This document shows, one piece after another, positions 1,818 through 29,247 of a stretch of 39,086 nucleotides of DNA. Position 1 is the first letter of the stretch; each line of letters begins with the position of its first letter. A program made the position numbers and the translations under genes. The notes under the pieces were generated by a model. It had not been told where the DNA came from and made no database searches. It saw nothing but the letters and a program-made list of their open reading frames with translations. This DNA is from Candidatus Woesearchaeota archaeon (GTDB lineage: Archaea > Nanobdellota > Nanobdellia > Pacearchaeales > GW2011-AR1), in assembly GCA_964653605.1 (NCBI GenBank), contig CAZZGW010000004.1:1-39086 (forward strand). Direction: 5' to 3'.

Positions 1818-3404
1818 TTATTTGAATTCTTCTGCAAAGTATTTTGCTGTAAGTGGTTCCCCTGTTGCATCCTCAACAAGCCTATCCCAAGTCTTTGTTG
1901 CACCTGGTTTGAATATGTTTTCTTTAAGATATTTTCCTATTTCTTTGTTAGAATAATCTGGATTTTTGAAATTATCACTCTTAAGGATGTTTTTTACAAT
2001 ATAATTATTTAATTGAGAGGCCAAAAACTTTCCTAGCAAATAATTATGGTAATAAACAGGAGAACTGGCAATATGTATTTTAGAAGCCCAATCGGGTTCA
2101 TCTCTATAAAAATCAATTAATTGGTATTTTTTTACAAGACCCCACCATAATTTGTTTAAATCTTGGTCGGGGTTTTTGTATAATTCTTTTTCAAAGTAAA
2201 ACATTACTTGATCCCATCTTGTAAAAACTAATTCTTCCGTCCTAAGACTCTTTCTAAGCAAGTCGGAAATTTTATCAACTTCTTCGGGGTCCGCTTTACA
2301 ATATTTTTTTAGGAAAGAAGTATTTTTTGAATTTCTTTCAAATAAAAGAGCAATAGCTTCTGTAGTAAATATGTGTGCCTTATCTTTCAATATGAATGGA
2401 AGGTCTTCTTTCGCATAGGTTTGGTCATAAATTGAGTGTCCTAATTCATGTAATGTTGTGCAAGCCCAGTATTCATTATTCTTTACGCTTTGAATGATTC
2501 TTACATCTCCCTCTCCCCCCATATCCATGCAACAAGCATGCTGATATTTTCCTGGTTTTTCATATAAATCACTTTTTTCTAATATTCCAGAAACATCAAA
2601 TCCAGCCTCGCTATAGAATTTTTCAACAGTTTTAATAATGTCTTCTTTGTAAAATCCGTCTAAATCAACATCGTAAACTTTTGGGCCTTTCTGAAAGAAA
2701 AGATCTTGGTAGTGCCAAGGTTTTAGTTCCTCTTTTGAAATGTTGTATTTTTTTGAAAGCACTTTATCAATATCTTCTTTCAGTTTCTCAAAAGCACCAT
2801 CCAAATGAACTTCCATCTCATTGAATATGTTTTCAATATCTTTTCCCTTTTGTTCTCCAAGTTCAAGGACCATAACATAATAATCTTCAAATCCCAAACT
2901 CTTTGCAAGTTTGTTTCTTAGTTTAATAAGTTCCAACAAGTCCTCCTCAACCAGTGCACCTTGTTTTTTGCTCGCCTCCCAAGCTGCCTTAAGTTTTTGA
3001 GAATCCGTTTCAGTTTCTAATATATCTTTGATATCGTTGTCAGTTAGAGTTTTTCCATTAACTTCTGCTCTGAAAGTGTTGAATTTTTGTTCTATTTCAG
3101 ATTCTTTCTTAGAAATTTCTTTTAATAGTTCATTATCTCCCTGACATCCCAAGTAGGACCTGCAAAGTATATCAAATTGCCTTTTTTCTAAAGGATCTTC
3201 TGCCTTTTTCAGGAAATCCTTCACTTTCTCAAATCTTTCTTTATTATTCAAATAGGTGCTAAATTCATTAAGGTGCTTCTCAAATTCCTCATAATACTCT
3301 TTTTTACCTGTAGTAAGGGCATTCCAGTAGGCCAATGCGTATTTTTTAATAATTACTTGCAAATTCCTATTTTCAATTTCCAAGAATTTTTGTACTTCAT
3401 CCAT
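1818..3404 (-). CDS. Zinc metallopeptidase of the M2/M3 (ACE/oligopeptidase-like) group
   Basis: HELGH zincin motif, downstream TEAIA glutamate ligand, DLYEKPGK-HACC, PWHYQD and HIASSPVYYHNY motifs. Confidence 0.85.
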   Translation of the reverse strand: MDEVQKFLEIENRNLQVIIKKYALAYWNALTTGKKEYYEEFEKHLNEFSTYLNNKERFEKVKDFLKKAEDPLEKRQFDILCRSYLGCQGDNELLKEISKKESEIEQKFNTFRAEVNGKTLTDNDIKDILETETDSQKLKAAWEASKKQGALVEEDLLELIKLRNKLAKSLGFEDYYVMVLELGEQKGKDIENIFNEMEVHLDGAFEKLKEDIDKVLSKKYNISKEELKPWHYQDLFFQKGPKVYDVDLDGFYKEDIIKTVEKFYSEAGFDVSGILEKSDLYEKPGKYQHACCMDMGGEGDVRIIQSVKNNEYWACTTLHELGHSIYDQTYAKEDLPFILKDKAHIFTTEAIALLFERNSKNTSFLKKYCKADPEEVDKISDLLRKSLRTEELVFTRWDQVMFYFEKELYKNPDQDLNKLWWGLVKKYQLIDFYRDEPDWASKIHIASSPVYYHNYLLGKFLASQLNNYIVKNILKSDNFKNPDYSNKEIGKYLKENIFKPGATKTWDRLVEDATGEPLTAKYFAEEFK

Positions 3405-3447
3405 CCCAAGAGATATTTTTAAGTCTTTAAAAGAATATCTGTCCCTT

Positions 3448-3463
3448 CCGAAAACTTTATAAA
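3448..3463 (+). promoter_or_regulatory. Archaeal BRE + TATA box upstream of the psmB-aCPSF1 operon
   Basis: CCGAAAAC followed directly by TTTATAAA in the divergent intergenic gap, 58 nt before the psmB ATG. Confidence 0.55.
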
Positions 3464-3521
3464 ATAATGATTTTTACCTCTATTATAAATTCTATAAATA
3501 TATTATAGTATTCTAAGAAAA

Positions 3522-4202
3522 ATGAACGAAGAATTGAAAGGAAATCTTGATAAGTACGTTTTAAAGACCGGAACTTTGACCGTAGGAATTGTTTGTAAAG
3601 ATGGAATAGTCCTTGCTGCAGATAACAGACAAAGCTATGCTCAAGGAAATGCTGTTGCTTATATTGCTGGCCAAGCAGAAAAGATTAGCGCAATAAATGA
3701 TAGAATTATTGTAACTACTGCTGGTGGGGCTGCAGATTCTAGAAGAGTAATAAAATTAGTTAGGGCAGAACTTAGATTAAAGGAGTTAAAAAGTAAGAAA
3801 AAGGTTAATACAAAAGAAGTAGCTTCATTAATGTCAAATATGTTATTTCAAAATATTAGACAACCCTCCATGATCCCAAGTATAGCTCATTTTTTAATAG
3901 CCGGATATGATGAAACTGGACTAAGTTTATACGATGCATCCCCCGATGGATATTTACAAAAAATAGAAACCTATCAAGCAACAGGTGCGCCTTTTGAAAG
4001 CCTAGGTATTTTTGACGTAGAATATGAGAAGAAAATAACTTTAGAGCAAGGAATTGAGTTAGCAAAAAAAGTCTTCGATGCTACAAGGGGAAGACAGCCA
4101 GGGGTTGGAGATGGATTTGACATTTACACAATAAAAAAAGGCGAAATAAAAAAAGTCTCTTCTCAGAAAGTTGTTGATGAGATGAAAGACAGAGAAAAAT
4201 AA
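3522..4202 (+). CDS. psmB: 20S proteasome beta subunit
   Basis: Short propeptide ending KTG/T, TVGIVCKDGIVLAAD and GGAAD Ntn-hydrolase motifs, and the conserved archaeal position next to aCPSF1. Confidence 0.93.
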   Translation: MNEELKGNLDKYVLKTGTLTVGIVCKDGIVLAADNRQSYAQGNAVAYIAGQAEKISAINDRIIVTTAGGAADSRRVIKLVRAELRLKELKSKKKVNTKEVASLMSNMLFQNIRQPSMIPSIAHFLIAGYDETGLSLYDASPDGYLQKIETYQATGAPFESLGIFDVEYEKKITLEQGIELAKKVFDATRGRQPGVGDGFDIYTIKKGEIKKVSSQKVVDEMKDREK

Positions 4203-4229
4203 TCATATTGATTAAAAAATATTTTTAAA

Positions 4230-6113
4230 ATGGGCATTTTAGATAACATAAAAGAAAAACTACACGGTAAAGTAAAAGAAGCTAACTTCGAAGGAGCAAA
4301 TATTGTTCTATATACAGATAATGAATTATTTTTCAGAGAAGGCGAAGGAAAAATAAAAGAGATAGTTAGCGAAATAAAAAAACGGATTGAATTACGAGCA
4401 GATGCAAAAATTTTACCAGATACAACAACTGCTGAAAAACAAATTAAGCAAATTGTTCCTAATGAGGCAGAAATTGAGAATGTGATTTTTGATAAACATA
4501 GGAGTATTGTAGTTATTGAGGCAAAGAAACCAGGATTGGTTATAGGAAAGCAAGGATCAATCTTAGAAGAAATACGTAAAAAGACTTTCTGGACCCCACA
4601 AGTTCAACGTTCTGCAGCAATCAAAAGCAAAATAACTGAAAACATTAGAGAAGTGCTATATGCAAATAATAATTACAGAAGAAAATTCTTGAATGAAATA
4701 GGAGAGAAAATATACAAAAGTTGGAATCCAGAAAAAATGGATTTATGGGTTAGGTTAACTTGCATGGGTTCGGGCCGTCAGGTGGGTAGAAGTTGTTTCC
4801 TACTCCAAACAAATAATTCAAAAGTTCTCTTAGATTGTGGAATTGATGTTGCAGGACAGGGAGAGGATAAATTTCCTTACTTAAATATCCCGGAGTTTAA
4901 TATAAACACCTTAGATGCTGTAATCTTGAGCCACGCTCACTTAGATCATAGTGGTTTAATTCCTTATCTATATAAGATGGGATATAAAGGACCAGTTTAT
5001 ATGACTGCCCCAACAAGGGACATTGCTTCTTTGCTTGCATTAGATTTTATAGGTGTTGCGTATAAGCAAGCGTCAGCGCCTTTGTTTAGTTCTGTAGATG
5101 TTAAAGAAATGGTAAAACATAGTATTTGCTTGAATTACGGAGAAGTTACAGATGTTACTCCGGACATAAGAATTACATTATATAACGCAGGACATGTTTT
5201 AGGATCGGCACAAGTCCATATGAATATTGGAAACGGTTTACACAATTTTGTTTATTCTGGAGACATAAAATATGCAAAGACAAAGCTATTGGATCCTGCT
5301 GTTAATAAGTTTCCAAGAGTAGAATCAATCCAAGTGGAATCAACATATGGTGGAAGAGACGACCTGTTACCCTCGAGAAAAGAAACTGAAAAGAAATTTA
5401 TAGATCTGGTTAAAGAAACTGTAGAAAAAGGAGGGAAAGTTTTACTTCCAGAATTAGGATTGGGTCACGCTCAAGAGACTATCTTGAGGGTTGAAGAAGC
5501 AGTTAGAAATGGGGAGCTTCCAAATGTTCCAATGTATATTGATGGAATGGTTTGGGACATTAATGCAATCCACACTGCTTACCCAGATTTCTTAAGTAGC
5601 AATGTTCGTTCACTTATATTTCAAGATAAAAATCCTTTTATTTCAGATATTTTCTCAAGAGTTGGTTCTCAACATGAAAGGAAAGCAGTTATTGAGGGTG
5701 GACCTTGCATCATAATTGCAACTTCAGGGATGCTTGTTGGAGGAGCATCAGTAGAATATCTTAAATCATTTGCGGATAATCCAAAAAATCTCTTAATTTT
5801 AAGTTGTTATCAAGGGCCAGGTTCCCTGGGTAGGCAGTTACAAGATGGAGAGAGAAGAGTTAAGATGGAATCTGATGGAAGAATGATAGATGTTGATGTT
5901 CAGTTAAGAGTAGAGTTGGTTAATGGGCTTTCTCCCCACTCAGGAAGAAATGAACTAATGGGGTATTTCAATAATATGAGGCCAAGACCAAAAAGAATTA
6001 TAGTAAACCATGGGGAAGTTTCTAAATCATTGGATTTAGCCTCTGCACTTTACAAACTTAATAGGGTTGAAACAACTGTTCCTAGAAACCTTGAGACTAT
6101 TCGTTTGAGATAA
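4230..6113 (+). CDS. fttA: KH-domain beta-CASP ribonuclease aCPSF1 (FttA transcription termination factor)
   Basis: N-terminal KH region (KPGLVIGKQG), VGRSC, SHAHLDH metallo-beta-lactamase motif, NAGHVLGS, ESTYG, NHGE and terminal NLETIRLR. Confidence 0.95.
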   Translation: MGILDNIKEKLHGKVKEANFEGANIVLYTDNELFFREGEGKIKEIVSEIKKRIELRADAKILPDTTTAEKQIKQIVPNEAEIENVIFDKHRSIVVIEAKKPGLVIGKQGSILEEIRKKTFWTPQVQRSAAIKSKITENIREVLYANNNYRRKFLNEIGEKIYKSWNPEKMDLWVRLTCMGSGRQVGRSCFLLQTNNSKVLLDCGIDVAGQGEDKFPYLNIPEFNINTLDAVILSHAHLDHSGLIPYLYKMGYKGPVYMTAPTRDIASLLALDFIGVAYKQASAPLFSSVDVKEMVKHSICLNYGEVTDVTPDIRITLYNAGHVLGSAQVHMNIGNGLHNFVYSGDIKYAKTKLLDPAVNKFPRVESIQVESTYGGRDDLLPSRKETEKKFIDLVKETVEKGGKVLLPELGLGHAQETILRVEEAVRNGELPNVPMYIDGMVWDINAIHTAYPDFLSSNVRSLIFQDKNPFISDIFSRVGSQHERKAVIEGGPCIIIATSGMLVGGASVEYLKSFADNPKNLLILSCYQGPGSLGRQLQDGERRVKMESDGRMIDVDVQLRVELVNGLSPHSGRNELMGYFNNMRPRPKRIIVNHGEVSKSLDLASALYKLNRVETTVPRNLETIRLR

Positions 6114-6239: not shown

Positions 6240-7151
6240 ATGAAGCATAACATAAAAATCACGCTAGTTCTTCTAGCAATGTTTATTATAACGCAATTTA
6301 TAGGAATGTTTATTGTAAATTATTATTCTATTCAAGGACATGAGCTCCCTTACGGGATGGAAACTCCCGAAGTTCAATCTCAAACAGACTTTTATTCTTC
6401 TTTTTTACCCTCGATATTAATAGCATTTGTAGTAGCAATAATTATTTTATTTCTATTAACGAAATTTAAGCTAGCATTTGTTTTGAGAATTTGGTTTTTC
6501 TTAGTTATAATGCTTGCCATAGGAATTTTCTTTAACGCAGTTCTTCCAAATGGAAACTATACGGGGTTGATTGCAATTATCCTTGCACTTCCGCTCGCAT
6601 TAGTAAAAGTTTACAAACAGAATTTCCTAGTTCATAATTTAACAGAGTTGGTAGTTTATCCTTCAATAGGTGCTGTTTTTGTTCCTTTGTTAAATATTTG
6701 GACAGCAATTGTGCTTTTGGTATTGATTTCTCTTTATGATCTATGGGCTGTATGGAAGTCTGGAATAATGCAAAAAATGGCAAAGTACCAAATGGATGAG
6801 CTAAAAATATTTGGAGGGATGATGGTTCCTTATCTTTCTAAATATCAAAAGAAAAAGTTGAAGAAGATGAGAAAAGCAAAGAAAGAAAATCCTAAGAATT
6901 TCAAAGAAGTTAAGCTTAAAGTTAATATGGCTGTTTTAGGAGGAGGAGATATAGTCTTCCCTATAATTGCAGCAGGAGTAATGCTTGTTAATTATGGATT
7001 TTTCCCTGCATTATTTGTTCTTTTAGGAGCAACTCTTGGTTTAGGATATTTGCTTTTCATAGCAAAACCAAAGAAACCTTACCCCGCAATGCCTTTCATA
7101 ACTGCAGGAATATTTTTAGGAATGTTGGCTAGTTTGCCTTTTATCTTATAA
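6240..7151 (+). CDS. Presenilin/signal-peptide-peptidase family intramembrane aspartyl protease
   Basis: Multiple TM helices, catalytic YD (LYDLWAVW) and GxGD (LGGGD) motifs, and a PAL-like PAMP motif. Confidence 0.9.
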   Translation: MKHNIKITLVLLAMFIITQFIGMFIVNYYSIQGHELPYGMETPEVQSQTDFYSSFLPSILIAFVVAIIILFLLTKFKLAFVLRIWFFLVIMLAIGIFFNAVLPNGNYTGLIAIILALPLALVKVYKQNFLVHNLTELVVYPSIGAVFVPLLNIWTAIVLLVLISLYDLWAVWKSGIMQKMAKYQMDELKIFGGMMVPYLSKYQKKKLKKMRKAKKENPKNFKEVKLKVNMAVLGGGDIVFPIIAAGVMLVNYGFFPALFVLLGATLGLGYLLFIAKPKKPYPAMPFITAGIFLGMLASLPFIL

Positions 7152-7557
7152 GTCTAGCCATTCTAGGAATAATTATTATATCAGGTTTGTTATTGAGTTC
7201 TTTACTTAATTTAGATAATTCTCTTTCTTTTACCATCTTTTGGGCGTAGGACTCAATGTTCATGTTTTTGCAGTACATTTGTGTGCTTTCTTTGCTTGTT
7301 GGTCTCCAATGGGCTATGTCCTCTCTTTTGAGCATATATGGAAGCCCTTCCTCTTCAATAGAAAATTCCGATCCATTTCCAATAGGTTCAGACTTTTGAT
7401 AGGGTAAAAGTCCTATTTCCCCGTTATTTATTTGGGATAATACTCCTGTAAGTCTATCTCCTTTTTTTAGGGTTATTAGGGTCCAATGATCCTTAAAATC
7501 CTCTAAGGTTATCTTTTCTCTTGTTTCAGAGTTAAATCCTATCCCATTTTCTTTCAT
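7141..7557 (-). CDS. Hypothetical protein with weak resemblance to an Sm/LSm-like fold
   Basis: 138-aa ORF with ATG start and an upstream TATA-like element. ITLKKGDRLTGVL...LKREDI resembles Sm1/Sm2 patterns by eye only. Confidence 0.5.
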   Translation of the reverse strand: MKENGIGFNSETREKITLEDFKDHWTLITLKKGDRLTGVLSQINNGEIGLLPYQKSEPIGNGSEFSIEEEGLPYMLKREDIAHWRPTSKESTQMYCKNMNIESYAQKMVKERELSKLSKELNNKPDIIIIPRMARLIR

Positions 7558-7661
7558 ATTTATGTGTGATAAACACTATTTTTAAACTTTTGGTATTTGT
7601 TGTCACTAGCCAAATACAACACCATAGAAACCTTTAAAAACCCCTAAAGAATAGTAACACT

Positions 7662-8078
7662 ATGAAAACAGACAAAGAATATGTTACAGATATTAAAGCA
7701 AGAAGAGAATATCTTACAGAAAACGATTTTATATCTGAAGAAGATTCAGAAATGTATGGGGCAATCGCTCTTGCAGATATTGATAAATCAAAGAGACTTT
7801 TAGGCAGTTTAAAGTATATGCCCCAAGGAGAAAAGGATAGAATAAGATATATCTTAAATTTTTATGAATCAGGAGAAAATAAAGGAAGAACTTTTAGAGG
7901 GGTTAATGGAAAAAACTTACTTGGTCTAATGGGTTATATTGTAAGTTCAAAATACAGAGAAGATGTAAAGAGCGAAATTAATTTTAAAGAAATGACAAAT
8001 GACAAATTATCAAAATCAAGCAAAATGATTGAAAAAATTCAAAGTGCTAGAAAAAATAAAAAAGGAGCTAAAAATTAA
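7662..8078 (+). CDS. Hypothetical protein
   Basis: 138-aa ORF. GAAACCTTTAAAAA BRE/TATA ends about 21 nt before the ATG, consistent with a leaderless transcript. Confidence 0.65.
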   Translation: MKTDKEYVTDIKARREYLTENDFISEEDSEMYGAIALADIDKSKRLLGSLKYMPQGEKDRIRYILNFYESGENKGRTFRGVNGKNLLGLMGYIVSSKYREDVKSEINFKEMTNDKLSKSSKMIEKIQSARKNKKGAKN

Positions 8079-13287: not shown

Positions 13288-13332
13288 AGTATACCCATAG
13301 TTCTTTTATTTATAAAATTGTTTATAGAAGGT

Positions 13333-13482
13333 GAAATTAATTATTTACTTAGAAGAAGTTCTATTTTCTTTGGATTACGTTTAATTTCCTTTATGTAAAT
13401 CACTGTGTGGATTTATGTCCATGGAAATTAATTATTTACTTAGAAGAAGTTCTATTTTCTTTGGATTACGTTTAATTTCCTT
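13333..13482. repeat. Exact 59-bp direct repeat (13333-13391 and 13424-13482) duplicating the oapB 3' end, with a 32-bp spacer
   Basis: GAAATTAATTATTTACTTAGAAGAAGTTCTATTTTCTTTGGATTACGTTTAATTTCCTT read twice. Confidence 0.95.
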
Positions 13483-13845
13483 AACTATTGTGGCAGGCCC
13501 AATAATAGTAATAGCTCCCAGGTCTCCTTTAACAATCATCTGGACCAATCCTTTTCTAACCCTGTCCATAAATGTCTGATCACCATTCCCCGAGATAACC
13601 GCCAATTCAATTCCTTTAAATTCTTTAACATGTCCAATCATTGCCATTGTATCCCCTATTAATCTTGTTTCTTCATCACTTCTTAATTTTCCTTGCAAGA
13701 TTAAAATATTATTTCCTAAAACAATTCCAAGAATCTTCTTAATACGTTCATCCCCGTTTAAATCTTTTATTTCAGAGTAAGGTAAGAATTGGATGGTAAA
13801 TCCTTTAATCTTACCAATGCCTTTTTTCCCCTTTTTTCCAGCCAT
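13432..13845 (-). CDS. oapB: DUF2073 family protein (OapB)
   Basis: ERIKKIL...NILILQGKL..EETRLIGDTM...FKGIE...TIIGPATIVKEIKRNP pattern, directly downstream of the Era-like GTPase. Confidence 0.85.
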   Translation of the reverse strand: MAGKKGKKGIGKIKGFTIQFLPYSEIKDLNGDERIKKILGIVLGNNILILQGKLRSDEETRLIGDTMAMIGHVKEFKGIELAVISGNGDQTFMDRVRKGLVQMIVKGDLGAITIIGPATIVKEIKRNPKKIELLLSK

Positions 13846-20959: not shown

Positions 20960-23242
20960 TTATCTTTTTACAAATTTTCCTGTTCCAAGAGGAGTTTCAT
21001 TTTCATCTCTTCCTCTTATAATATACAGGCCGGATTTTAAGTCAGAAGAATTAAATTCTGTTTCTCCATTTCCATCTTTATCAATTATTTCTTTTTCAAG
21101 TTTTCCCGAAGTGTTGTAAAATTCTAAGTAAGCAGTTTTATTCTTTGAATATCTTACTCTTCCAAACTCATTTACAGGATTTGGAAAAACAAGCATTTTG
21201 TTATTTAGCAATTCATTTTCCAACCCTACATCTGTTATATTAATATACTTAATAGTAGAATCTTTATTTCCAAACATATCTTCTGCGTATAATTTAAGCT
21301 CATTTTCTCCAGTTGGAAGACTTTGATAATTCTTGAACCCTTCTTGAGAAATGTTTTCTTTGTTTCCATTTAAAGCAAGATATGATTCTTCTGGATTGAA
21401 ATTCTTTTCTTCAACACTCCAGCTAGCAGAAACATTATTTCCATCAATTTCATAATTAAGTGTTGGCTTTGGTTTTATGGTATCTTTAACTGAAAAATTA
21501 ACTTCTTTTTCTGTTTTATTTCCAGCCTCATCAACTCCTGTAACAGAAACTTGATATTCTCCGTAGTCTAGATTTTCATTGCCAGAAAAGTTCTCTTCAA
21601 AGATATTCCTTGTTCCATTATTTACCTGGAAATATGCACTATCAAGTGATTTATCGTCGGTAACACTAAAATTAAAATTAGGGCTCTCTTGATAGAGTGC
21701 ATTTTCCAGAGGACTAGAAATGTTAACTTCTGGAGAGGTGTTATCCACTGGCTCAACAATTGAGAAATTAACAACTTTATCAGTTTTATTTCCTGCTTTA
21801 TCTACTCCACGAACAAGTAAATTGTAATTTCCAAAGTTTAAATTAGGGTTCTGATTAAAAACTTCATCAAAGAGAGTTTTAGTAGTTCCATTATCTAAAC
21901 TAAAGTAAGAACTATCTAGCTCTGTTTCATCTGTAACGTTAAATTGGAAATCTGGACTTGAACCATAAACCATTCCTTCCAACGGACTAGAAACACTAAC
22001 CTCCGGATTGATATTATCAGCGGGTTTAACAATTGAGAAATTCTTTTGTATAACTGTTTCTTTACGAGTTTTATCAATACCGTAAGTTACCATTGTGTAT
22101 TCTCCTTCTGGCAAATCTGGATTAAAATTATTGCTTTCTGAAATTAGTCTTTTTGTTGCCCCCCCATCAAAGCTAACCCATCCTTCCCTGACGCCTTTAT
22201 CATTCTGTTGATTATCCTGGATTTCAATGTTAATGTTTGGACTTGATTCGTATTGAAACCCTTCTTGAATTGAAGTGCTTATTGTGGGGTATGAAGTGTC
22301 TCTTTTTAGAGTTTGACCATATTGTTCCTCGGATGTTGGCCAATAGTTTGAGGGCACTAGATCATTAATTCTAAAACGAGTAAGGATGCTCAAATAAAGG
22401 CTCTTTTCTTCTTCGATTCCAAAAGTCCCAAATGTTGGAGGTCCTCTAATTTCAAATTTTGAATTTTCTCCAATAATGTATGCTTCTCCTGGCTGAACAT
22501 CCATGAGATCTCTTTGAGGTTCAAAATGGTTCCAATCATTCCAATTTAATGCATCATTTCCAACAAAAATGGTGTTCATTTCATGGGCTCCAGAAATTTT
22601 TCCATTTTCATCATAATCTTTTATATAGGCGTCCATCAAAGGAATCCCATGTAAACCATTTTGCGAAAAATCATAATCCCAAACTTCTTGTAGGTCTGCA
22701 ATATCATTAGGATCAGTAAATCCATGGACATCAATCATTGTTTGTTGAGAATATTGTGTACAGTCAAAGATTGGAATTTGTCCCCCATCTTCAGAGTGGT
22801 TAGTTTGGTCAAATTCATAAACACTTTGAAAATAAGCATTTCTTTCTTCGGGGGTTTGCAGAGCATCCCAATACCAATTTGCTACTTGTTTAAATTTGTG
22901 GTTTCTTACATGGTCTTCAAGCATGTCATAGTCTTGGTTATTTACTTGATTGTCTCCATTAATATCTGCTCTGTACATTAACCAGGGATCAGAAGGATCA
23001 GTAAAAGTCCCATCAATTATCTCCTGCATCCTTGTCAGATCATTTTCTATAAGAGTGTCTTTAGAAATTCCTTCCCTATTGACATCTCCAGAACGTCTAA
23101 ATTGTAATGATTCTGTTGGATCAATTGTTGCAAGTGAAGGATCATCTCTGTAAATTCCATCATTTTGCCCATAAACATTAGGCAAAATACTTGCTACAAC
23201 CGCAGTTCCCGCCATTAAAAAATTATTTAGTCTTTTTCCCAT
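20960..23242 (-). CDS. Secreted multidomain protein: dockerin-like repeat, putative Cys-protease domain, Ig-like repeats, T9SS type-A C-terminal sorting domain
   Basis: GDVNREG and ADINGDNQVNNQD EF-hand-like motifs, FDC...HEMN...FEPQRD, repeated D..PEV.ISSP...GVDxAGNKT, and VFPNPV...YNTSGK...LKSGLYII...KFVKR. Confidence 0.8.
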   Translation of the reverse strand: MGKRLNNFLMAGTAVVASILPNVYGQNDGIYRDDPSLATIDPTESLQFRRSGDVNREGISKDTLIENDLTRMQEIIDGTFTDPSDPWLMYRADINGDNQVNNQDYDMLEDHVRNHKFKQVANWYWDALQTPEERNAYFQSVYEFDQTNHSEDGGQIPIFDCTQYSQQTMIDVHGFTDPNDIADLQEVWDYDFSQNGLHGIPLMDAYIKDYDENGKISGAHEMNTIFVGNDALNWNDWNHFEPQRDLMDVQPGEAYIIGENSKFEIRGPPTFGTFGIEEEKSLYLSILTRFRINDLVPSNYWPTSEEQYGQTLKRDTSYPTISTSIQEGFQYESSPNINIEIQDNQQNDKGVREGWVSFDGGATKRLISESNNFNPDLPEGEYTMVTYGIDKTRKETVIQKNFSIVKPADNINPEVSVSSPLEGMVYGSSPDFQFNVTDETELDSSYFSLDNGTTKTLFDEVFNQNPNLNFGNYNLLVRGVDKAGNKTDKVVNFSIVEPVDNTSPEVNISSPLENALYQESPNFNFSVTDDKSLDSAYFQVNNGTRNIFEENFSGNENLDYGEYQVSVTGVDEAGNKTEKEVNFSVKDTIKPKPTLNYEIDGNNVSASWSVEEKNFNPEESYLALNGNKENISQEGFKNYQSLPTGENELKLYAEDMFGNKDSTIKYINITDVGLENELLNNKMLVFPNPVNEFGRVRYSKNKTAYLEFYNTSGKLEKEIIDKDGNGETEFNSSDLKSGLYIIRGRDENETPLGTGKFVKR

Positions 23243-23726: not shown

Positions 23727-23756
23727 TTATCCCTTTATGACTACTAGTGGTTTTAT
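23727..23756 (-). pseudogene. rtcB: Relict rtcB 3' terminus (IKPLVVIKG-stop)
   Basis: Minus strand reads ATA AAA CCA CTA GTA GTC ATA AAG GGA TAA. The last 8 aa plus stop match RtcB, with 7 differences in 27 nt, all synonymous. Confidence 0.75.
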
Positions 23757-23784
23757 TTGTATGAATTATTTAATTATAACAATA

Positions 23785-23792
23785 TTTAAATA
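23785..23792 (+). promoter_or_regulatory. TATA box for the RiPP operon (probably leaderless transcript)
   Basis: TTTAAATA ends 21 nt before the precursor ATG, the same spacing as at the 7662 gene. Confidence 0.55.
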
Positions 23793-23813
23793 GAATTAAG
23801 ACTCCTGAATAAT

Positions 23814-23993
23814 ATGGCAAATAAGGGATTAGAAGGAAAAACTGGAAGTGGCCCAGCTCCAATTACTGCAAATGAAGTAGCATACTTGAATAGTATGATG
23901 CCTCAAGTTAGACAAGAAGGATATACTTGTGTTTCTGGTTGTAGTGAATGCATAAGTTGCGGGGGAAATCCTTCATACCAAAAATTAAATTAA
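23814..23993 (+). CDS. Putative RiPP precursor peptide, 59 aa: MANKGLEGKTGSGPAPITANEVAYLNSMMPQVRQEGYTCVSGCSECISCGGNPSYQKLN
   Basis: Translated by hand (below the ORF-track cutoff). Cys-free leader-like N-terminus, C-terminal CxxxCxxCxxC core, 51 nt upstream of the radical SAM gene on the same strand. Confidence 0.8.
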   Translation: MANKGLEGKTGSGPAPITANEVAYLNSMMPQVRQEGYTCVSGCSECISCGGNPSYQKLN

Positions 23994-24044
23994 ATCTTTT
24001 AATAGTTTTTAGAAAAAAGCAATTCTATACTAATAGGTTTAAGA

Positions 24045-25151
24045 ATGACTAAAAAACAAATATTTATTCAATGGGATTCAACAAATAATTGTAATCTTGA
24101 ATGTAAACATTGTTATCATAATAGAGAAGGAAATCAAGACCATGTCCAAGAAAAAAAAGATTTAATGAGTCTTTTAGAGGTAAAAAGTATGGTTGATGAT
24201 CTTATAAATACAACCCAAAGATGGAACATGGAACCAAGATTCCATATTTCAGGAGGAGAACCCCTATTGAGAAAAGATTTATTAGACATTTTAGATTACA
24301 CTAAACAAAATAGAGTTCCCACAATTCTTCTTACCAATGGAACTCTAATAACCTTGGAAAAAGCAAAAGAGTTTAAAAAAAGAGGGATGAAAAGATTACA
24401 GATTTCTTTAGATGGAGATAAAAAAACCCATAATATTGTAAGAAATAGGAATTATGCTTTTGATAAAGCAATACAGGGAATTTCAAATAGCAATGAAGCA
24501 GGTTTGGATGTAACAGTTTCTTTTACTGCAATGCAATCAAATAAGAAATATATAGAACAAGTGATAGTAGATTCCATTGAAGCAGGAGCAAAAGCTTTTG
24601 GAATACAATCCTATGTTCCAGACAAAAAATTAGGCATTAGAGATCCTGAATTTATTAATTCAAAAGAATTATATAGAATTTATAGATTTCAAAGAGAATT
24701 AGATAAAAAATATGGAGATAAAATAAAATTACTAGAATCAGAAGTTTTATGGCATTTAATGCACAATGATGATTCTTTAAAAGAAGAATCAAGAGAAAAA
24801 GAAAAATATTTGGGAGGGTGTGGAGCAGGATTTTCAGGTTTATCTGTTCTTTCAAATGGAAGAGTTTATCCTTGTAGAAGACTCCCAATAGATATTGGGC
24901 ACATTAGCGAAGGATTAATAAAACTTATAACAGAAAATGAAGTTATGCAAAATCTAAGAGATTTACATAAAATAAAAGAAAATACTGGATGCGATTATGT
25001 TTCACATTGTAAAGGATGTAGGGCTATTTCCTATGCAACAACCGGAGATTATATGGCTAAAGATCCAATGTGTTTTAAAAAATTAGTTAAACCTTCTGAT
25101 CTTAAAAAAAGAGACTTTGAAAATGAAACAAAGAAAACCATTAATTGTTGA
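24045..25151 (+). CDS. Radical SAM enzyme with SPASM domain (putative peptide maturase)
   Basis: CNLECKHC, SGGEPLLR, TNGT and ISLDG motifs, then C-terminal CGAG...NGRVYPC...CDYVSHCKGCRA...DPMC. Confidence 0.93.
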   Translation: MTKKQIFIQWDSTNNCNLECKHCYHNREGNQDHVQEKKDLMSLLEVKSMVDDLINTTQRWNMEPRFHISGGEPLLRKDLLDILDYTKQNRVPTILLTNGTLITLEKAKEFKKRGMKRLQISLDGDKKTHNIVRNRNYAFDKAIQGISNSNEAGLDVTVSFTAMQSNKKYIEQVIVDSIEAGAKAFGIQSYVPDKKLGIRDPEFINSKELYRIYRFQRELDKKYGDKIKLLESEVLWHLMHNDDSLKEESREKEKYLGGCGAGFSGLSVLSNGRVYPCRRLPIDIGHISEGLIKLITENEVMQNLRDLHKIKENTGCDYVSHCKGCRAISYATTGDYMAKDPMCFKKLVKPSDLKKRDFENETKKTINC

Positions 25152-25626
25152 AATTATGCAAGAATTAAATCCCACATCTGTTTTGGATTTGGGTTGTGGA
25201 AAATGCAGATTCTCTAATAAATTTATTGAGAAAGGAATTTCTGTTGTAGGTGTTGATAAAGAAAATTTAATGGAATCAAAAGATAATTTTAAATTTGTAA
25301 ACAAAGATGTTCTAGATTTTAATTTTGAACCAAAATATGATTTAATAATTGGAACAGGAATACTGCATTTTTTAAAAAAACAAGATGCTAAAAAAATTAT
25401 TAATAGAATAAAAGAAAATACCCTCTCAAGTGGATTAAATCTTTTAATATGCATGTCTAATGAAGAAAATCCAAATAATAAAATTAATTTTTATCCAGAT
25501 AAAGAGGTGTTAAATAAATTGTATTCTGATTGGAAGATAATCCACAATACTTCTACTTTGTCTAGGAAACATGGAGAAGATATGCACCAACATAGGATAA
25601 TTATTTTCTTAGCAAAGAAAATTTGA
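25123..25626 (+). CDS. Class I SAM-dependent methyltransferase, TehB-like (ATG start 25123; track uses TTG 25117)
   Basis: VLDLGCG motif I, VVGVD, and YDLII...ILHFL...GLNLL. Overlaps the radical SAM gene end. Confidence 0.88.
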   Translation: MKQRKPLIVEIMQELNPTSVLDLGCGKCRFSNKFIEKGISVVGVDKENLMESKDNFKFVNKDVLDFNFEPKYDLIIGTGILHFLKKQDAKKIINRIKENTLSSGLNLLICMSNEENPNNKINFYPDKEVLNKLYSDWKIIHNTSTLSRKHGEDMHQHRIIIFLAKKI

Positions 25627-25627
25627 T

Positions 25628-26362
25628 ATGAAAGAAATAAATAGAAATAAATCTAAGATATATACTTTAAATGGAAAAAAAATTGTTTCCAAATATTATG
25701 AAAAACCAATTTTTTTACATAGGGAATTATTTTTTTATGATTTATTTAAAAAAAATAATTTAATAAAAACTCCAGAAATTCATAATTGGAAAGGAATTAA
25801 TCTCCAAACTTATTTTATTGAGACAGAAAAGAAAAATGTTTATCAAACAATAAAAGATTGGGCAAAAGTTCATGATTATTTTATAAAAAATCCTTTAGAA
25901 AAAAATAAATTGCTTATTAACCATAATTTTGAAGAAGTTGTTTCCTATATTTTTGAAAATTTAAATGTATTCGGAGATTTAAAAAAAGTTGTTGAAAATA
26001 AATTGCATAATAAAAAAATAAACAAAAATATTTCAACAATTTTGCATGGGGATATGCAGAATAAAAATATGATGACTTTTCAAGGAGATAATTATTATTT
26101 TGATTTTGAAATAGGGGGGATAGGCCATCCTGGAAGAGATGTGGCTTCAATGATTATTTCTAATCCTAATAAAAAGAAAGAGATAATCAAAAGTTACAAA
26201 GAAAGTGTGGGTTTTAATTATAGAGGTATGGAAGAGGATTTAGAAACTTGGTTAGTGGCTAGGACAGCACAACTATATGCTATTTTTAATAAAAAATTAA
26301 AAAGCAATGAACAAAAAAAAGATCTTAAAGATAAATTATTTTGGATAATTGAAGATTTATAG
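25628..26362 (+). CDS. Aminoglycoside-phosphotransferase/choline-kinase-like kinase
   Basis: VSKYY lysine, RE helix glutamate, Brenner motif LHGDMQNKN, and FDFE...GHPGRDVA. Starts 1 nt after the methyltransferase stop. Confidence 0.85.
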   Translation: MKEINRNKSKIYTLNGKKIVSKYYEKPIFLHRELFFYDLFKKNNLIKTPEIHNWKGINLQTYFIETEKKNVYQTIKDWAKVHDYFIKNPLEKNKLLINHNFEEVVSYIFENLNVFGDLKKVVENKLHNKKINKNISTILHGDMQNKNMMTFQGDNYYFDFEIGGIGHPGRDVASMIISNPNKKKEIIKSYKESVGFNYRGMEEDLETWLVARTAQLYAIFNKKLKSNEQKKDLKDKLFWIIEDL

Positions 26363-26372
26363 TATGTTGAAT

Positions 26373-26552
26373 TTACCCAATAATAACAACTAATGGCTTT
26401 AATCTAGCTACTTTTTTAGAAATACCTAAATCGTGCACTACCTGAACAACTCCTTCAACATCTTTGTAGACTTCTGGGGATTTTTCTACAAGGGATTTGT
26501 TACTTGTACTAGCTATTTGAATTCCCTGTTTTTTTAGTGATTCTTTAGTTTT
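26373..26552 (-). pseudogene. rtcB: Duplicated rtcB 3' fragment (about 59 codons, no start)
   Basis: Translates KTKESLKKQGIQIASTSNKSLVEKSPEVYKDVEGVVQVVHDLGISKKVARLKPLVVIIG-stop, colinear with the RtcB C-terminus. 26381-26477 matches 27007-27103 at 94 of 97 nt. Confidence 0.93.
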
Positions 26553-26554
26553 TT

Positions 26555-26998
26555 ATGACGGATAATTATGATTATTTTTCTACTCTAATTCGCAAGTCTT
26601 TTAATAAGAGATTGGGAAGAACAAATGAAGATCTTGAAATTATGGATATAGATCAAACAAGAAGCCCAATTAATCCTTATTTTAATACAACCCTCCCATA
26701 CACTCCTCCTGAAAATCCATTAACTGTTTTAGCTAGAATAAATCCCAACAGGTTAGCAGGTATTATGGAAAGAAAATTACAAAATGAAAGAATTAATATG
26801 TTTGTAAATCAAGAAATTCAAGAAAAAAAAGAAAATACTAAAATGGTGCAAGCTTATTTTAATGGAATGACTTCTCAAGAAAAAGGAAAAATTACTGCCT
26901 ATGATGTTGAGTCTTTTGAAGTAAGAGAAGACGGAATTTTAGTATTTTTGGGTCTTGGAGGAACAAAAAAAGTAACAAGAGTTATACTCCAGAGATAA
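26555..26998 (+). CDS. Hypothetical orphan protein between rtcB and its duplicated 3' end
   Basis: 147-aa ORF with no motif I recognise. Confidence 0.6.
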   Translation: MTDNYDYFSTLIRKSFNKRLGRTNEDLEIMDIDQTRSPINPYFNTTLPYTPPENPLTVLARINPNRLAGIMERKLQNERINMFVNQEIQEKKENTKMVQAYFNGMTSQEKGKITAYDVESFEVREDGILVFLGLGGTKKVTRVILQR

Positions 26999-28414
26999 TC
27001 AACCCTTAATAACAACTAATGGCTTTAATCTAGCTACTTTTTTAGAAATACCTAAATCTTGCACTACCTGAACAACCTCTTCAACATCTTTGTAGACTTC
27101 TGGTGCTTCTTCTGCTAGTGATTTATCACTTGAACTAGAAACTTCAATTCCTTTCTCATTAAGCATTTTTTTTGTTTTTTTACCATCAATTGTTTTTATG
27201 GCTTTTGTCCTTCCCATGATTCTCCCAGCTCCATGAACTGTGCTTCCAAAGGTCATTTCTTCTGCTTTTTTAGTTCCTGCTAAAACGTAACTTGATGTTC
27301 CCATAGTTCCTGGAATTAAAACAGGTTGTCCAACTTTTCTGTATTTTTCGGGGATTTCTTTTCTTCCTGGACCGAATGCTCTAGTTGCACCCTTTCTATG
27401 AACACAAACTTCCTGCATTTTTCCATTAATTTTGTGTTTTTCAAATTTAGCAATATTATGGCAGACATCATAAACAACCTCAACTTTTACTTTTGGAAAA
27501 AGTCTCTTGAGTTCTTCTCTTGTCCATTCTGTAATTAATTGTTTATTCGCAAAAGCAAAATTAACAGCGCAGCACATTGCCCCGTAGTAGTCTTTTCCTA
27601 ATTTGCTTTTAATTGGGGCATTAACTAATTCCCTGTCCGGAAGCTCCTTTACGTTTGTTTCTTTTTCCATCGCTTTAATGTAATCCGAGGCTATTTGGTG
27701 TCCTAACCCTCGAGAACCACAATGAATCATAACGACTGCCTGGTCTTTCTTAAGTCCAAAAGTTTTAGCAATTTCTTTATCAAAAATTTCATCAACAAAA
27801 AGAACTTCAAGAAAATGATTTCCAGCTCCAAGGGTTCCTAATTGGCCTATCCCTCTTCTAATTGCTTTTTCAGAAACTTTTGAAACATCTGCTTCTTTCA
27901 TTTTCCCTCCCTCTTCGGTGTTAATGTAATCTTCCTTAATATTATCTCCGAGTTCAGACATATATTCTGCCCCTCTTTCAAGGATTTTTATGAAGTCAGA
28001 TCGTTTAACCTGGTAGGGGCTTCCTCTTCCAACACCAGAAGGAATTTTTTTGTTTAAAGAATTAAGAACTTCTTTTTGCTTTTCGAGAATGTCTTTTTTT
28101 GTTAAATTTGTTTTAAGCAATCTAACACTGCAATTAATGTCATATCCAACACCTCCTGGGCTTATGATTCCTTTATCTTTATCAAAAGCTGCTACGCCTC
28201 CTATGCTAAAACCGTAGCCCTGGTGTGCATCAGGCAATGCAATAGATTGATTAATAATTCCTGGCAAGTTAGCAACGTTAATAACTTGAATCAGAGTTTT
28301 GTCCTCTTTTATGTCCTTCAATATGCTTTCAGATGCATAAACCCTTCCCGGGACGTTCATCTTCCCTTTCCTAGGAATTTCATATATGTTCTCAGAAATT
28401 TTATTTATTTCCAT
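26999..28414 (-). CDS. rtcB: RNA-splicing/repair ligase RtcB (start revised to 28414, MEINKISE)
   Basis: LPDAHQGYGFSIGG, GVGYDINC, GTLGAGNHFLE, HCGSRG, YDVCHN, HRKGAT, HGAGR and EEAPEVYKD motifs. Confidence 0.96.
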   Translation of the reverse strand: MEINKISENIYEIPRKGKMNVPGRVYASESILKDIKEDKTLIQVINVANLPGIINQSIALPDAHQGYGFSIGGVAAFDKDKGIISPGGVGYDINCSVRLLKTNLTKKDILEKQKEVLNSLNKKIPSGVGRGSPYQVKRSDFIKILERGAEYMSELGDNIKEDYINTEEGGKMKEADVSKVSEKAIRRGIGQLGTLGAGNHFLEVLFVDEIFDKEIAKTFGLKKDQAVVMIHCGSRGLGHQIASDYIKAMEKETNVKELPDRELVNAPIKSKLGKDYYGAMCCAVNFAFANKQLITEWTREELKRLFPKVKVEVVYDVCHNIAKFEKHKINGKMQEVCVHRKGATRAFGPGRKEIPEKYRKVGQPVLIPGTMGTSSYVLAGTKKAEEMTFGSTVHGAGRIMGRTKAIKTIDGKKTKKMLNEKGIEVSSSSDKSLAEEAPEVYKDVEEVVQVVQDLGISKKVARLKPLVVIKG

Positions 28415-28495
28415 TTTTCTTATTATTATGAAAAGATAACTAACCTTTAAAAGGGTTTTTCCCCTCTGTAAAATCATGAAAAGGAGGTTAATTAA

Positions 28496-28833: not shown

Positions 28834-29247
28834 TTAAACATCTAGAACAACTTGTGCAATCCATTTTTCTGGTAGGTGCTTTATTTCCATTTCGCTATAT
28901 GTTACTGCCTTGATATGAGTAATCTCGTAATCATTGTTTTTTACGGTGTCTCCCACAACTCTTGCAGTGATTTCAAATTTTGCCTTATCTAAAATAACTT
29001 CCTCAAATCTACTTCCAATGAAATTTTCACTGTCCAATAAAAACAAGAATTCTTCTAAAAAATTGTACATTAAACTCTCAAGATCATTTCCTTCAGCCCT
29101 TATTGTCATCCTTTTATTAAGTTTTATTTTTTTATCCGACAAACTCTTGAATAACGCGAGTGCAGAATTCTCAAAGACCTCTTCAATTGTCTTTCCCCAA
29201 GCTTGGAACTTTATATCTGCAGTGTGTGATAAAAATTCAAATTTCAT
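28834..29247 (-). CDS. Archease (RtcB cofactor)
   Basis: FEFLSHTADI, IKAVTY and terminal VVLDV motifs, next to rtcB. Confidence 0.95.
   Translation of the reverse strand: MKFEFLSHTADIKFQAWGKTIEEVFENSALALFKSLSDKKIKLNKRMTIRAEGNDLESLMYNFLEEFLFLLDSENFIGSRFEEVILDKAKFEITARVVGDTVKNNDYEITHIKAVTYSEMEIKHLPEKWIAQVVLDV

What the first reader, a model, noticed from the sequence alone, without database searches (positions are those of the whole stretch)
23727..27103. Three stacked rtcB 3' ends: an apparent serial gene-capture hotspot without an integrase
Seen on the minus strand in order: intact rtcB end (26999), orphan gene, 59-codon rtcB end copy (26552-26373), RiPP operon, then a 10-codon rtcB end relic (23756-23727). 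All three ends are co-oriented and both cargo blocks are on the opposite strand. Established: elements that integrate in a gene's 3' end restore the gene and displace the old end. Inference: two successive acquisitions at rtcB, probably by homology-anchored recombination, with the relics delimiting the RiPP island at about 23757-26372.
Basis: partly seen in the sequence, partly recalled or inferred. Interest (0 to 1): 0.78.

Follow-up and report, generated by a model that had tools for sequence, protein, structure and literature searches.

The report
Stacked rtcB tails mark gene insertions
In a tiny archaeon, accessory genes have twice been slotted in directly behind the RNA-ligase gene rtcB, each time leaving an old copy of the gene's tail behind, and the same pattern turns up in several related genomes without any integrase in sight.

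Summary
rtcB (28477-26999, minus) is followed by a 147-aa orphan gene, an open 59-codon copy of the rtcB tail (26552-26373), a four-gene RiPP-like operon, and a short relic (KPLVVIKG+stop, 23753-23727). In the whole 729-kb genome the tail motif occurs only at these three places. The closest relative (G001) has the same flanks but no island, orphan or relic. A second, 75% identical copy of the RiPP operon on another contig matches window 23778-26361, so the relics do delimit the island. Stacked rtcB tails around small cargo blocks recur in at least five other genomes or contigs of the same archaeal family (L056 has three relics); cargo is mostly toxin-antitoxin or defence-like, and none of 10 cargo blocks holds an integrase. 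Relics differ from the working tail almost only at synonymous sites, so they come from other functional rtcB alleles, not from decay in place. Best reading (about 0.5): integrase-free, homology-anchored insertion of foreign DNA that carries an rtcB tail. A recombinase acting in trans is not excluded. The same architecture occurs at other genes, so rtcB is a favoured site, not a unique one. This is a new variant of known tail-displacement and accretion processes.

The parts
26999..28477 (-). rtcB (tRNA-splicing RNA ligase), intact, 492-aa frame
   Evidence: PF01139 over residues 64-492, E 1.4e-163; 76.8% identical to the G001 orthologue
26999..27180 (-). Working rtcB tail: the repeated segment (copy B), last 59 codons plus stop TGA
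   Evidence: Direct repeat D1; register alignment
26555..26998 (+). Orphan gene (147 aa), cargo block 2; fills the spacer between the two tail copies exactly and abuts the rtcB stop
   Evidence: ORF list. No Pfam, NCBIfam or PADLOC family. Homologues at 99% and 75% identity in the protein collection. Only weak hits in 2 of 200 other family genomes
26373..26552 (-). Copy A: displaced rtcB tail, 59 open codons plus stop TAA, ends ...KPLVVIIG
   Evidence: Mosaic: first 75 nt are 68% identical to the working tail, last 102 nt are 94%. An IIG end is a natural variant, seen in the G005 rtcB
23778..26361 (+). RiPP-like island (cargo block 1), as delimited by its paralogue on contig C49
   Evidence: 75.0% identity over 2597 nt to C49:2687-111; GC 0.19-0.31 against 0.35-0.375 in rtcB
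23814..23993 (+). 59-aa candidate precursor peptide with a Cys-rich C-terminal part
   Evidence: ORF; conserved next to the rSAM gene in C49 and in L093-L097 at 51-69% identity; no curated family
24045..25151 (+). Radical SAM / SPASM enzyme (368 aa)
   Evidence: PF04055 and PF13186; below every NCBIfam cut-off, best to NirJ2/AhbD/ACGX-type models
25117..25626 (+). TehB-like SAM methyltransferase (169 aa)
   Evidence: PF03848, E 3.2e-18
25628..26362 (+). APH/EcKL-like kinase (244 aa); its stop lies 10 nt from the stop of copy A
   Evidence: Weak PF01636 match; 30% identical to the kinase in the L070 cluster
23727..23756 (-). Oldest rtcB tail relic: KPLVVIKG plus stop TAA
   Evidence: 8 of 8 residues identical, 6 differing codons all synonymous
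20960..23242 (-). 760-aa surface or adhesin-like protein: the conserved downstream flank of the insertion site
   Evidence: Ig-like domains and Por_Secre_tail; homologue follows rtcB in G001
28834..29247 (-). Archease: conserved upstream neighbour of rtcB
   Evidence: PF01951; found next to rtcB in all 7 relatives' loci compared, one of them only as a fragment cut off by the contig end

Best explanation
The last conserved stretch of rtcB serves as a landing pad for integrase-free, homology-anchored gene insertion. DNA from a related lineage carries the 3' part of that lineage's rtcB plus the accessory gene(s) beside it. It pairs with the resident rtcB tail and recombines, as a single crossover of a circular or 'ends-in' molecule (Campbell type). 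rtcB stays whole, now with a hybrid tail. The cargo sits directly after its stop codon. A second, partial tail (foreign 5' part, resident 3' part and resident downstream DNA) is pushed distally. Here this happened twice: first the RiPP-like operon, leaving the 8-codon relic, and later the orphan gene, leaving the 59-codon copy A. SHOWN: the three tails; the absence of the island in the nearest relative; the island borders; recurrence in other genomes; the lack of integrase genes; and the allelic (synonymous) nature of the relics. INFERRED: the recombination mechanism, the order of events and the form of the incoming DNA. Repeat-flanked blocks could later loop out by recombination between the repeats and enter other lineages by the same route; this is speculation.
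For: (a) Homology between the working tail and each relic stops at or within a few bases of the stop codon in 9 of 9 pairs from 6 loci. Its 5' reach varies from about 27 to about 245 nt. That fits variable homologous fragments rather than one fixed att core. (b) Relics look like alleles of functional genes. Differing codons, synonymous to non-synonymous: L089 10:0 over 81 codons; window relic 6:0; the three L056 relics among themselves 5:0, 6:0 and 6:1; L087 6:1; L088 3:1; L086 3:1. The stop codon differs in every working/relic pair. (c) Copy A is a mosaic. Its first 75 nt are 68% identical to the working tail and 71% to G001, whereas the working tail is 83% identical to G001 there. Its last 102 nt are 94% identical to the working tail against 79-82% to G001, and they include an exact run long enough that the public-run contigs break at it. 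L089 shows the same three zones: diverged edge, near-identical centre, diverged last codons. This is what a crossover in the best-matching stretch would leave. (d) No integrase was found in the window or in 10 of 10 cargo blocks. No tyrosine recombinase was found in G409 or G394, which are 80-82% complete. (e) The same architecture occurs at unrelated genes: archease in L088, and a thermonuclease gene and a 97-aa gene in L096. This argues against an rtcB-specific enzyme. (f) rtcB is the last gene of a block that all 7 relatives' loci carry upstream, while the genes downstream of rtcB show no conserved order among them.
Against: The relics around the RiPP cassette are short: 27 nt here, perfect 22-nt and 26-nt repeats at two other sites. 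That is little homology for strand-exchange recombination and looks more like att cores. The cassette ends fall at nearly the same positions in the window and on C49, as expected of an element with defined ends. In L056 the relics are only about 70% identical to the working tail, with no long exact run, so homology-driven crossover there needs a later change of the working tail. A simple crossover between uniformly diverged alleles predicts divergence along the whole repeat; the near-identical centres need mosaic donors or later gene conversion. No circular form, empty-site allele or donor was observed.
Confidence: 0.5

Rival explanations
1. Tandem accretion by a site-specific recombinase acting in trans. 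The blocks are integrase-less, cis-mobilisable remnants (CIME-like) of elements whose attP mimics the rtcB tail. A recombinase encoded elsewhere (a resident Xer-like enzyme or a passing element) inserts each newcomer into the tail and displaces the previous one.
For: Gene-tail direct repeats flanking stacked islands, some without integration genes, are the known signature of this process (passages in PMC5704250, and PMC3146451). The RiPP cassette sits between perfect 22-nt and 26-nt repeats at two other sites, with near-constant cassette ends. Recombinases tolerate synonymous variation outside a short overlap, which would suit L056. G000 carries a 304-aa tyrosine recombinase frame on C1 and a partial one on the small contig C47.
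Against: 0 of 10 cargo blocks and none of the first ORFs downstream of rtcB in the other loci scanned carry a recombinase. For comparison, 16 Dehalococcoides islands carry an integration module and 15 do not (PMC3146451 passages). Repeat length ranges from 27 to 245 nt, and targets include at least four unrelated genes. No tyrosine recombinase was found in G409 or G394, though both genomes are incomplete.
Confidence: 0.25
2. One-sided homology plus an illegitimate or template-switch junction (homology-facilitated illegitimate recombination, as proposed for Rhs tips and T6SS effector-immunity arrays). The incoming linear DNA anchors in rtcB, and its far end joins the chromosome upstream of the crossover, duplicating resident sequence.
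For: This model was proposed for strings of orphaned 3' regions (PMC5361080 passages). Two-zone repeats, identical from their 5' border and then diverging only in the last codons, fit it: the L096 thermonuclease gene (about 140 identical nt, then 55 diverged) and L088 archease.
Against: It predicts that the 5' part of the relic equals the working copy. Copy A (68% there) and L089 (6 synonymous differences in the first 36 nt) do not. The illegitimate joint would have to fall inside the last 8-81 codons every time.
Confidence: 0.15
3. Local duplication followed by divergence in place (tandem duplication or slippage), with the cargo arriving later or independently.
For: L036 (G005, same genus) is exactly this: an 1825-nt tandem unit that starts 27 nt before the rtcB stop, with homology continuing past the stop into a duplicated 496-aa gene. 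For a small hairpin element, the two gene-end copies evolve in concert within genomes.
Against: In the window the cargo is not duplicated and homology ends at the stop. Neutral decay of an unused copy cannot give 6:0, 10:0 and 17:1 synonymous to non-synonymous codon differences.
Confidence: 0.05
4. Assembly artefact: a chimera of co-existing strains.
For: The genome is a fragmented metagenome bin of 76 contigs. The public-run contigs break inside the repeat and next to the relic.
Against: Contigs from two other studies carry the cargo-to-tail junctions without a difference. The same architecture is seen in independent assemblies. A junction from cargo into a tail copy cannot arise without reads that span it.
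Confidence: 0.03

Closest known systems
Tandem accretion of genomic islands and cis-mobilisable elements (CIMEs) at the 3' end of a target gene (ICESt1-type elements; reviewed in PMC5704250, passages read)
   Same: [quoted passage not shown] Older blocks are pushed outward. Blocks without integration genes keep their flanking repeats. The gene stays intact.
   Different: There a tyrosine or serine integrase and a defined att core do the work. Here no integrase was found in any block, repeat lengths vary about ten-fold, and several unrelated genes show the pattern.
Dehalococcoides ssrA genomic islands (PMC3146451, passages read)
   Same: Many co-oriented direct repeats of the 3' end of one essential gene lie downstream of it. 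They delimit tandem islands of accessory genes, 15 of them without an integration module.
   Different: The repeat there is a fixed 20-bp piece of an RNA gene, and 16 islands carry a serine-recombinase module. Here the repeats are protein-coding tails that vary at synonymous sites, and no module was seen.
C-terminal displacement in Rhs loci and sequential displacement in Vibrio cholerae T6SS effector-immunity arrays (PMC5361080, passages read; the Rhs paper is known only from its reference list)
   Same: A conserved upstream part anchors incoming DNA. The old 3' end is displaced downstream, leaving strings of orphaned 3' regions. No integrase is involved, and homology-facilitated illegitimate recombination was proposed.
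   Different: There the new tip encodes a different toxin with its own immunity gene, so the tip is the payload. Here every tail encodes the same housekeeping peptide and the payload is unrelated genes beside it.
Integron cassette arrays; IMEX elements at dif; SCC composite islands at rlmH/orfX
   Same: Serial insertion at one site next to or inside a conserved gene end. The newest block lies nearest the site. Some blocks lack their own recombinase.
   Different: Each depends on a dedicated or host recombinase and a specific site (attI/attC, dif, ISS). No IntI, attC-like site or dif-like palindrome was recognised here.

Membership tests
Site-specific integrative island / CIME accretion | Direct repeats made of the target gene's 3' end flank each block | tested here: met
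   also seen in L056 and L086-L089
Site-specific integrative island / CIME accretion | An integrase or recombinase gene in at least some elements at this site | tested here: not met
   0 of 10 cargo blocks. None among 35 window ORFs. Only the first one to three ORFs downstream of rtcB were scanned in the other loci (50 of 171 ORFs listed)
Site-specific integrative island / CIME accretion | A fixed core of identity with one crossover position | tested here: inconclusive
   All repeats end at the stop codon, but their lengths are 27, about 44-56, about 50, about 66, about 66, 180 and about 245 nt. The crossover point cannot be read from single genomes
Site-specific integrative island / CIME accretion | Excised circular form or empty site | not testable with these tools
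   Only contigs of public runs could be laid, once
C-terminal displacement / HFIR arrays (Rhs, T6SS EI) | Co-oriented orphaned 3' ends stacked downstream of an intact gene | tested here: met
C-terminal displacement / HFIR arrays (Rhs, T6SS EI) | Displaced ends derive from other functional alleles | tested here: met
   Synonymous to non-synonymous counts; mosaic of copy A
C-terminal displacement / HFIR arrays (Rhs, T6SS EI) | Each tip encodes a distinct toxin domain with a cognate immunity gene | tested here: not met
   All tails encode the conserved RtcB C-terminus; cargo genes are separate ORFs
Integron | intI tyrosine recombinase with attI, and attC at each cassette end | tested here: not met
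   No PF00589 in the window. The only repeats at block ends are rtcB tails
Diversity-generating retroelement (VR/TR pair at a gene's 3' end) | Reverse transcriptase nearby, and mismatches confined to template adenines | tested here: not met
   No RT domain in the window. Only 28 of 83 mismatches have A in the relic
Simple tandem duplication | Homology continues past the stop into a duplicated downstream segment | tested here: not met
   Not met in the window. Met in L036
rSAM/SPASM-modified RiPP cluster (ranthipeptide/sactipeptide-like) | Radical SAM enzyme with a SPASM domain next to a small Cys-rich precursor gene | tested here: met
   The precursor is conserved with the enzyme in C49 and L093-L097
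rSAM/SPASM-modified RiPP cluster (ranthipeptide/sactipeptide-like) | Score above the cut-off of a curated maturase or precursor family | tested here: not met
   All NCBIfam hits lie far below cut-off (best 182 bits against 500). No precursor family matched

The most novel reading that the evidence does not exclude
These small-genome archaea run an integrase-free cassette economy. A duplicated tail of a conserved gene acts as a portable homology arm, so any block caught between two tails can loop out and re-enter whichever lineage keeps that gene. rtcB is favoured because it is the last conserved gene before a hypervariable surface-protein region. The same logic would explain (i) the tail duplications at archease, thermonuclease and other genes, (ii) the RiPP cassette sitting between short target repeats at three different sites, and possibly (iii) a family of about 35-45-nt hairpin elements that sit just after stop codons and are followed by a second copy of the gene's last codons.
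Probability: 0.3. Interest if true: 0.8.

Novelty: new variant of a known kind. Interest (0 to 1): 0.62.

Why it matters
DPANN-type archaea have tiny genomes, few recognisable mobile elements and no cultured genetics, and how they gain accessory genes is poorly known. A recurrent, integrase-free insertion site behind a housekeeping gene, marked by allelic tail relics, gives three things. First, a readable record of successive acquisitions, newest nearest the gene. Second, a simple sequence signature for finding recently acquired cargo in metagenome bins: defence and toxin-antitoxin genes, and a RiPP operon. Third, a testable model in which homologous recombination alone moves cassettes between lineages. 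It also extends tail displacement, known from polymorphic toxin loci, to a housekeeping gene whose tail does not change in meaning.

Tried and rejected
- Viral contigs: no relative of the orphan or of the rSAM enzyme.
- Orphan function: nothing from Pfam, NCBIfam, PADLOC or the protein atlas (best atlas score 0.77).
- Empty-site or excised forms: the joints listed by read laying that skip parts of the island (for example 23796 to 26088) have sides of 21-25 nt and high depth, which the tool flags as typical of other organisms, so I did not use them. No record spans 23756-23765 in X1. Several stretches have no cover in X3 and X4. None of this counts for or against the structure.
- Nucleotide self-search with the last 120 nt of each locus's rtcB: only chance-level hits outside the window, so short relics need the protein-level scan.
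- DGR reading: rejected.
- Xer/dif (IMEX) reading: no convincing dyad in the tail by eye, and the tail varies at synonymous sites between lineages. This was not tested formally.
- IS200/IS605: TnpA genes exist in G000 (C37, C31) and directly after rtcB in L033, but their end hairpins are GC-rich and unlike the AT-rich hairpin element. No relic accompanies the L033 copy.
- Rfam: no family for the hairpin element.
- tRNA targets: none near the L096 cassette.
- Literature: searches for rtcB as an integration site and for DPANN integrated elements with direct repeats returned nothing describing rtcB-tail relics. One listed paper mentions RtcB only in a gene list. Subscription journals are not covered.
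- G398 (second motif 10.8 kb away, 3 residues different), and G102, G155 and G333 (second motif on another contig, 76 kb away, or not followed by a stop): set aside as probable chance hits.
Full report
WHAT IS THERE. The window is one whole contig (C4) of a 729-kb, 76-contig archaeal genome bin, 86.9% complete. It carries archaeal housekeeping genes: a proteasome subunit, FttA, TrmB, CCA-adding enzyme, OapB/OapC, archease and RtcB. On the minus strand the order is as follows:
- rtcB, 28477-26999.
- A 147-aa orphan ORF on the plus strand (26555-26998), whose stop abuts the rtcB stop.
- A second rtcB tail, 26552-26373.
- Four plus-strand genes: a 59-aa Cys-rich peptide, a radical SAM/SPASM enzyme, a TehB-like methyltransferase and an APH-like kinase (23814-26362).
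- A short tail relic, 23756-23727.
- 183 nt of spacer, a 62-aa ORF, and a 760-aa surface protein.

IS IT REAL? The 59-codon copy is a direct repeat of the working tail, 84% identical over 174 nt and 96.9% over its 3' 97 nt. It is open throughout and 73% identical in protein. The relic encodes KPLVVIKG plus a stop. All 6 codons that differ from the working tail are synonymous, and the stop codon differs. A relaxed tail motif occurs at exactly these three places in six frames of the whole genome. Across 401 genomes of the order, a degenerate DNA pattern for the tail hit 195 genomes, mostly once each, while the reversed control pattern gave 7 hits in total. Contigs of public runs from two further studies carry the junctions kinase/copy A/orphan (26230-26591) and orphan/rtcB (26910-27185) with 0 and 1 differences. 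The probable source run has 26403-27036 in one piece. The relic's inner junction is covered by one record with only 22 nt on the relic side.

IS IT AN INSERTION? In the closest relative, G001 (rtcB 76.8% identical), the order orf241-orf149-archease-small membrane protein-rtcB is kept and the adhesin homologue follows. Between rtcB and the adhesin lies only a 92-aa GNAT fragment: no orphan, no RiPP genes, no relic. In all 7 relatives' loci compared the archease gene lies next to rtcB (in one it is cut off by the contig end), whereas no two share a conserved order downstream. The island is AT-richer, GC 0.19-0.31 against 0.35-0.375 in rtcB. A second copy of the whole operon lies on the 2745-nt contig C49 of the same bin. 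It is 75% identical over 2597 nt and aligns to window 23778-26361, within about 20 nt and 11 nt of the two tail copies.

DOES IT RECUR? Among 78 loci (597 kb) that held an rtcB relative, 49 had a recognisable rtcB end. Of these, only the window and the metagenome contig L056 had extra tails; a reversed decoy motif gave 0 hits. L056 has three co-oriented relics, all encoding ARLKPIAVMKG plus a stop. They lie behind an rtcB that ends VRVKPLIVIKG and separate three cargo blocks.

In the 401-genome scan, ten genomes had two hits on one strand. In five of them (G000, G164, G371, G394, G409) the two hits lie 0.8-3.3 kb apart on one contig, each followed by a stop. G171 has a one-mismatch relic 693 nt behind its rtcB and another at a contig end. 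The other four were set aside as probable chance hits.

Cargo in these loci:
- AAA_14/DUF4143 ATPases, which match the PADLOC candidate family PDC-S01.
- Nucleotidyltransferase genes, each with a small neighbouring ORF.
- A PIN-domain gene.
- A ThiF-family gene with two unknown genes.
- A serpin.

None of the 10 blocks (2 in the window, 3 in L056, and 1 each in L086, L087, L088, L089 and L091) contains an integrase or transposase domain. Cargo runs in either orientation.

WHAT KIND OF COPIES ARE THE RELICS? In 9 of 9 working/relic pairs the similarity ends at or within a few bases of the stop codon, and the stop codon itself differs. The 5' reach varies from about 27 to about 245 nt. Differences are overwhelmingly synonymous: L089 10:0 over 81 codons; the window relic 6:0; the L056 relics among themselves 5:0, 6:0 and 6:1; L087 6:1; L088 3:1; L086 3:1. 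An unused copy decaying in place would collect mostly non-synonymous changes, so these tails were shaped inside working rtcB genes.

Copy A has 16 non-synonymous codon differences, but they show a coding-like position bias (11, 4 and 15 differences at codon positions 1, 2 and 3) and a mosaic structure. Its first 75 nt are foreign-looking: 68% identical to the working tail, while the working tail is 83% identical to G001 there. Its last 102 nt are 94% identical to the working tail, against 79-82% to G001. Its unusual IIG end is a natural variant, seen in the G005 rtcB. Mismatches are not adenine-specific, which excludes a DGR template/variable repeat pair.

NOT ONLY rtcB. The RiPP operon occurs in 15 other loci from bins whose records are titled Pacearchaeota, Woesearchaeota or Nanoarchaeota, and none is within 5 kb of an rtcB gene or tail. 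On C49 it lies between perfect 22-nt direct repeats that occur nowhere else in the genome. In L096 the three-gene version lies between perfect 26-nt repeats, one of which is the 3' end of a convergent 97-aa gene. That is the same geometry as in the window, at another target.

L096 also has a thermonuclease gene followed by two genes and a 65-codon copy of its own tail. In L088 the archease gene is followed by a Fic-domain gene and a copy of the archease tail. A tail scan of 1.5 Mb found 20 downstream co-oriented tail copies against 4 upstream ones. That data set is enriched for rtcB loci, and some hits are tandem repeats or paralogues. L070 (rtcB 73% identical) has a distantly related rSAM/peptide/kinase cluster directly behind rtcB, without a recognisable relic.

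MECHANISM. I commit to homology-anchored, integrase-free insertion (0.5). DNA from a related lineage, containing an rtcB 3' fragment and neighbouring genes, recombines with the resident tail by a single crossover of a circle or an ends-in fragment. This explains:
- the intact gene;
- the cargo starting at the stop codon;
- the variable repeat length;
- the foreign 5' edge and shared centre of copy A and of the L089 copy;
- the allelic look of all relics;
- the lack of integrases;
- the occurrence at several genes.

rtcB would be favoured because it ends a conserved block that borders a variable surface-protein region: the adhesin and a 1582-aa DUF4215 protein here, and similar proteins in L056, L086 and L087.

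Weak points are the very short, perfect repeats around the RiPP cassette, its near-constant ends, and the low identity of the L056 relics to the working tail. These fit a trans-acting site-specific recombinase better (0.25). One-sided homology with an illegitimate second joint (0.15) suits the two-zone repeats but not copy A. Duplication in place (0.05) holds for L036 only. An assembly artefact is unlikely (0.03). The order of events (RiPP first, orphan later) follows from the displacement logic and from the greater length and identity of copy A; it is inferred.

COMPARISON WITH WHAT IS KNOWN. From passages of three papers, the pattern combines features of three described processes. Tandem accretion with CIMEs is the first (PMC5704250). 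The Dehalococcoides ssrA islands are the second: a fixed 20-bp repeat, with 15 islands lacking an integration module (PMC3146451). The third is C-terminal displacement and HFIR arrays in Rhs and T6SS loci (PMC5361080). It differs from the first two in lacking any recombinase gene and a fixed core. It differs from the third in that the displaced tails all encode the same housekeeping peptide while the payload is separate genes. My searches found no paper describing rtcB as an insertion site or such relics in DPANN archaea. The library lacks most subscription journals.

VERDICT. It is a new variant of a known kind, of moderate to good interest (0.62). The broader possibility, a general homology-driven cassette traffic in these archaea, deserves a census in closed genomes.

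Noticed in passing
window 13330-13445 (minus strand), behind the OapB gene 13432-13845; also G000 contigs C1:23431, C1:112714, C2:21670, C12:5769/5829, C14:7686, C19:3891, C24:462, C31:1891, C52:721: A family of about 35-45-nt AT-rich hairpin elements. The conserved core has compensatory changes in its stem and matches no Rfam family. Each element sits just after a stop codon and is followed by a second copy of the gene's last 6-17 codons plus a stop. In C31 the two copies differ at 10 codons, all synonymous. In G009 the element follows the orthologous OapB gene with the same junction, and the two copies match within each genome but differ between genomes, which suggests concerted evolution. 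The core was found in 5 of 61 relatives.
   Followed up: partly
G000 contig C49 (2745 nt): A second RiPP-like operon (peptide, rSAM, methyltransferase, kinase), 75% identical to the window's. It is flanked by a perfect 22-nt direct repeat that is unique in the genome. The contig is too short to identify the target.
   Followed up: partly
L096:3076-6881: Two more tail-duplication sites lie side by side. The RiPP operon (without the kinase) sits between 26-nt repeats of the 3' end of a 97-aa gene. A thermonuclease gene is followed by two small genes and a 65-codon copy of its own tail.
   Followed up: partly
L088 (G394:C32) 6394-7895 and 2718-5573: The archease gene has its own tail relic 1254 nt downstream, with a Fic-domain gene between. 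The rtcB frame in this locus is 951 aa, and in L087 a LAGLIDADG ORF abuts the rtcB start, so inteins or homing endonucleases may sit in or at rtcB.
   Followed up: no
L033 (G028:C65) 2968-3405: An IS200-like Y1 transposase gene lies directly downstream of rtcB on the opposite strand. No tail relic was seen.
   Followed up: partly
L036 (G005:C18) 3760-5640: In a species of the same genus, an 1825-nt tandem duplication starts 27 nt before the rtcB stop and duplicates a 496-aa lipoprotein-like gene. This is a different route to an rtcB tail relic.
   Followed up: yes
Genus g1 genomes: Only 4 of 24 genomes of the genus (G000, G001, G005, G009) gave a strong match to this RtcB C-terminus. Several others gave only weak matches inside 384-400-aa frames. 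They may carry another RtcB type, or the gene may be missing from the bins.
   Followed up: no
L093:4384-4673: Two tRNA-Val(TAC) genes 219 nt apart lie directly upstream of the RiPP operon in that genome, possibly another duplicated insertion target.
   Followed up: no
G000 contig C47 (2961 nt): A small contig with a partial tyrosine-recombinase-like frame, several tiny ORFs and two paralogous membrane-protein genes in tandem; possibly a small integrative element or virus fragment.
   Followed up: no
L070:3386-6371: A distantly related cluster lies directly behind an rtcB that is 73% identical to the window's: a 430-aa rSAM/SPASM enzyme, a 238-aa unknown, a 60-aa Cys-rich peptide and an APH-like kinase. 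No relic was recognised.
   Followed up: partly
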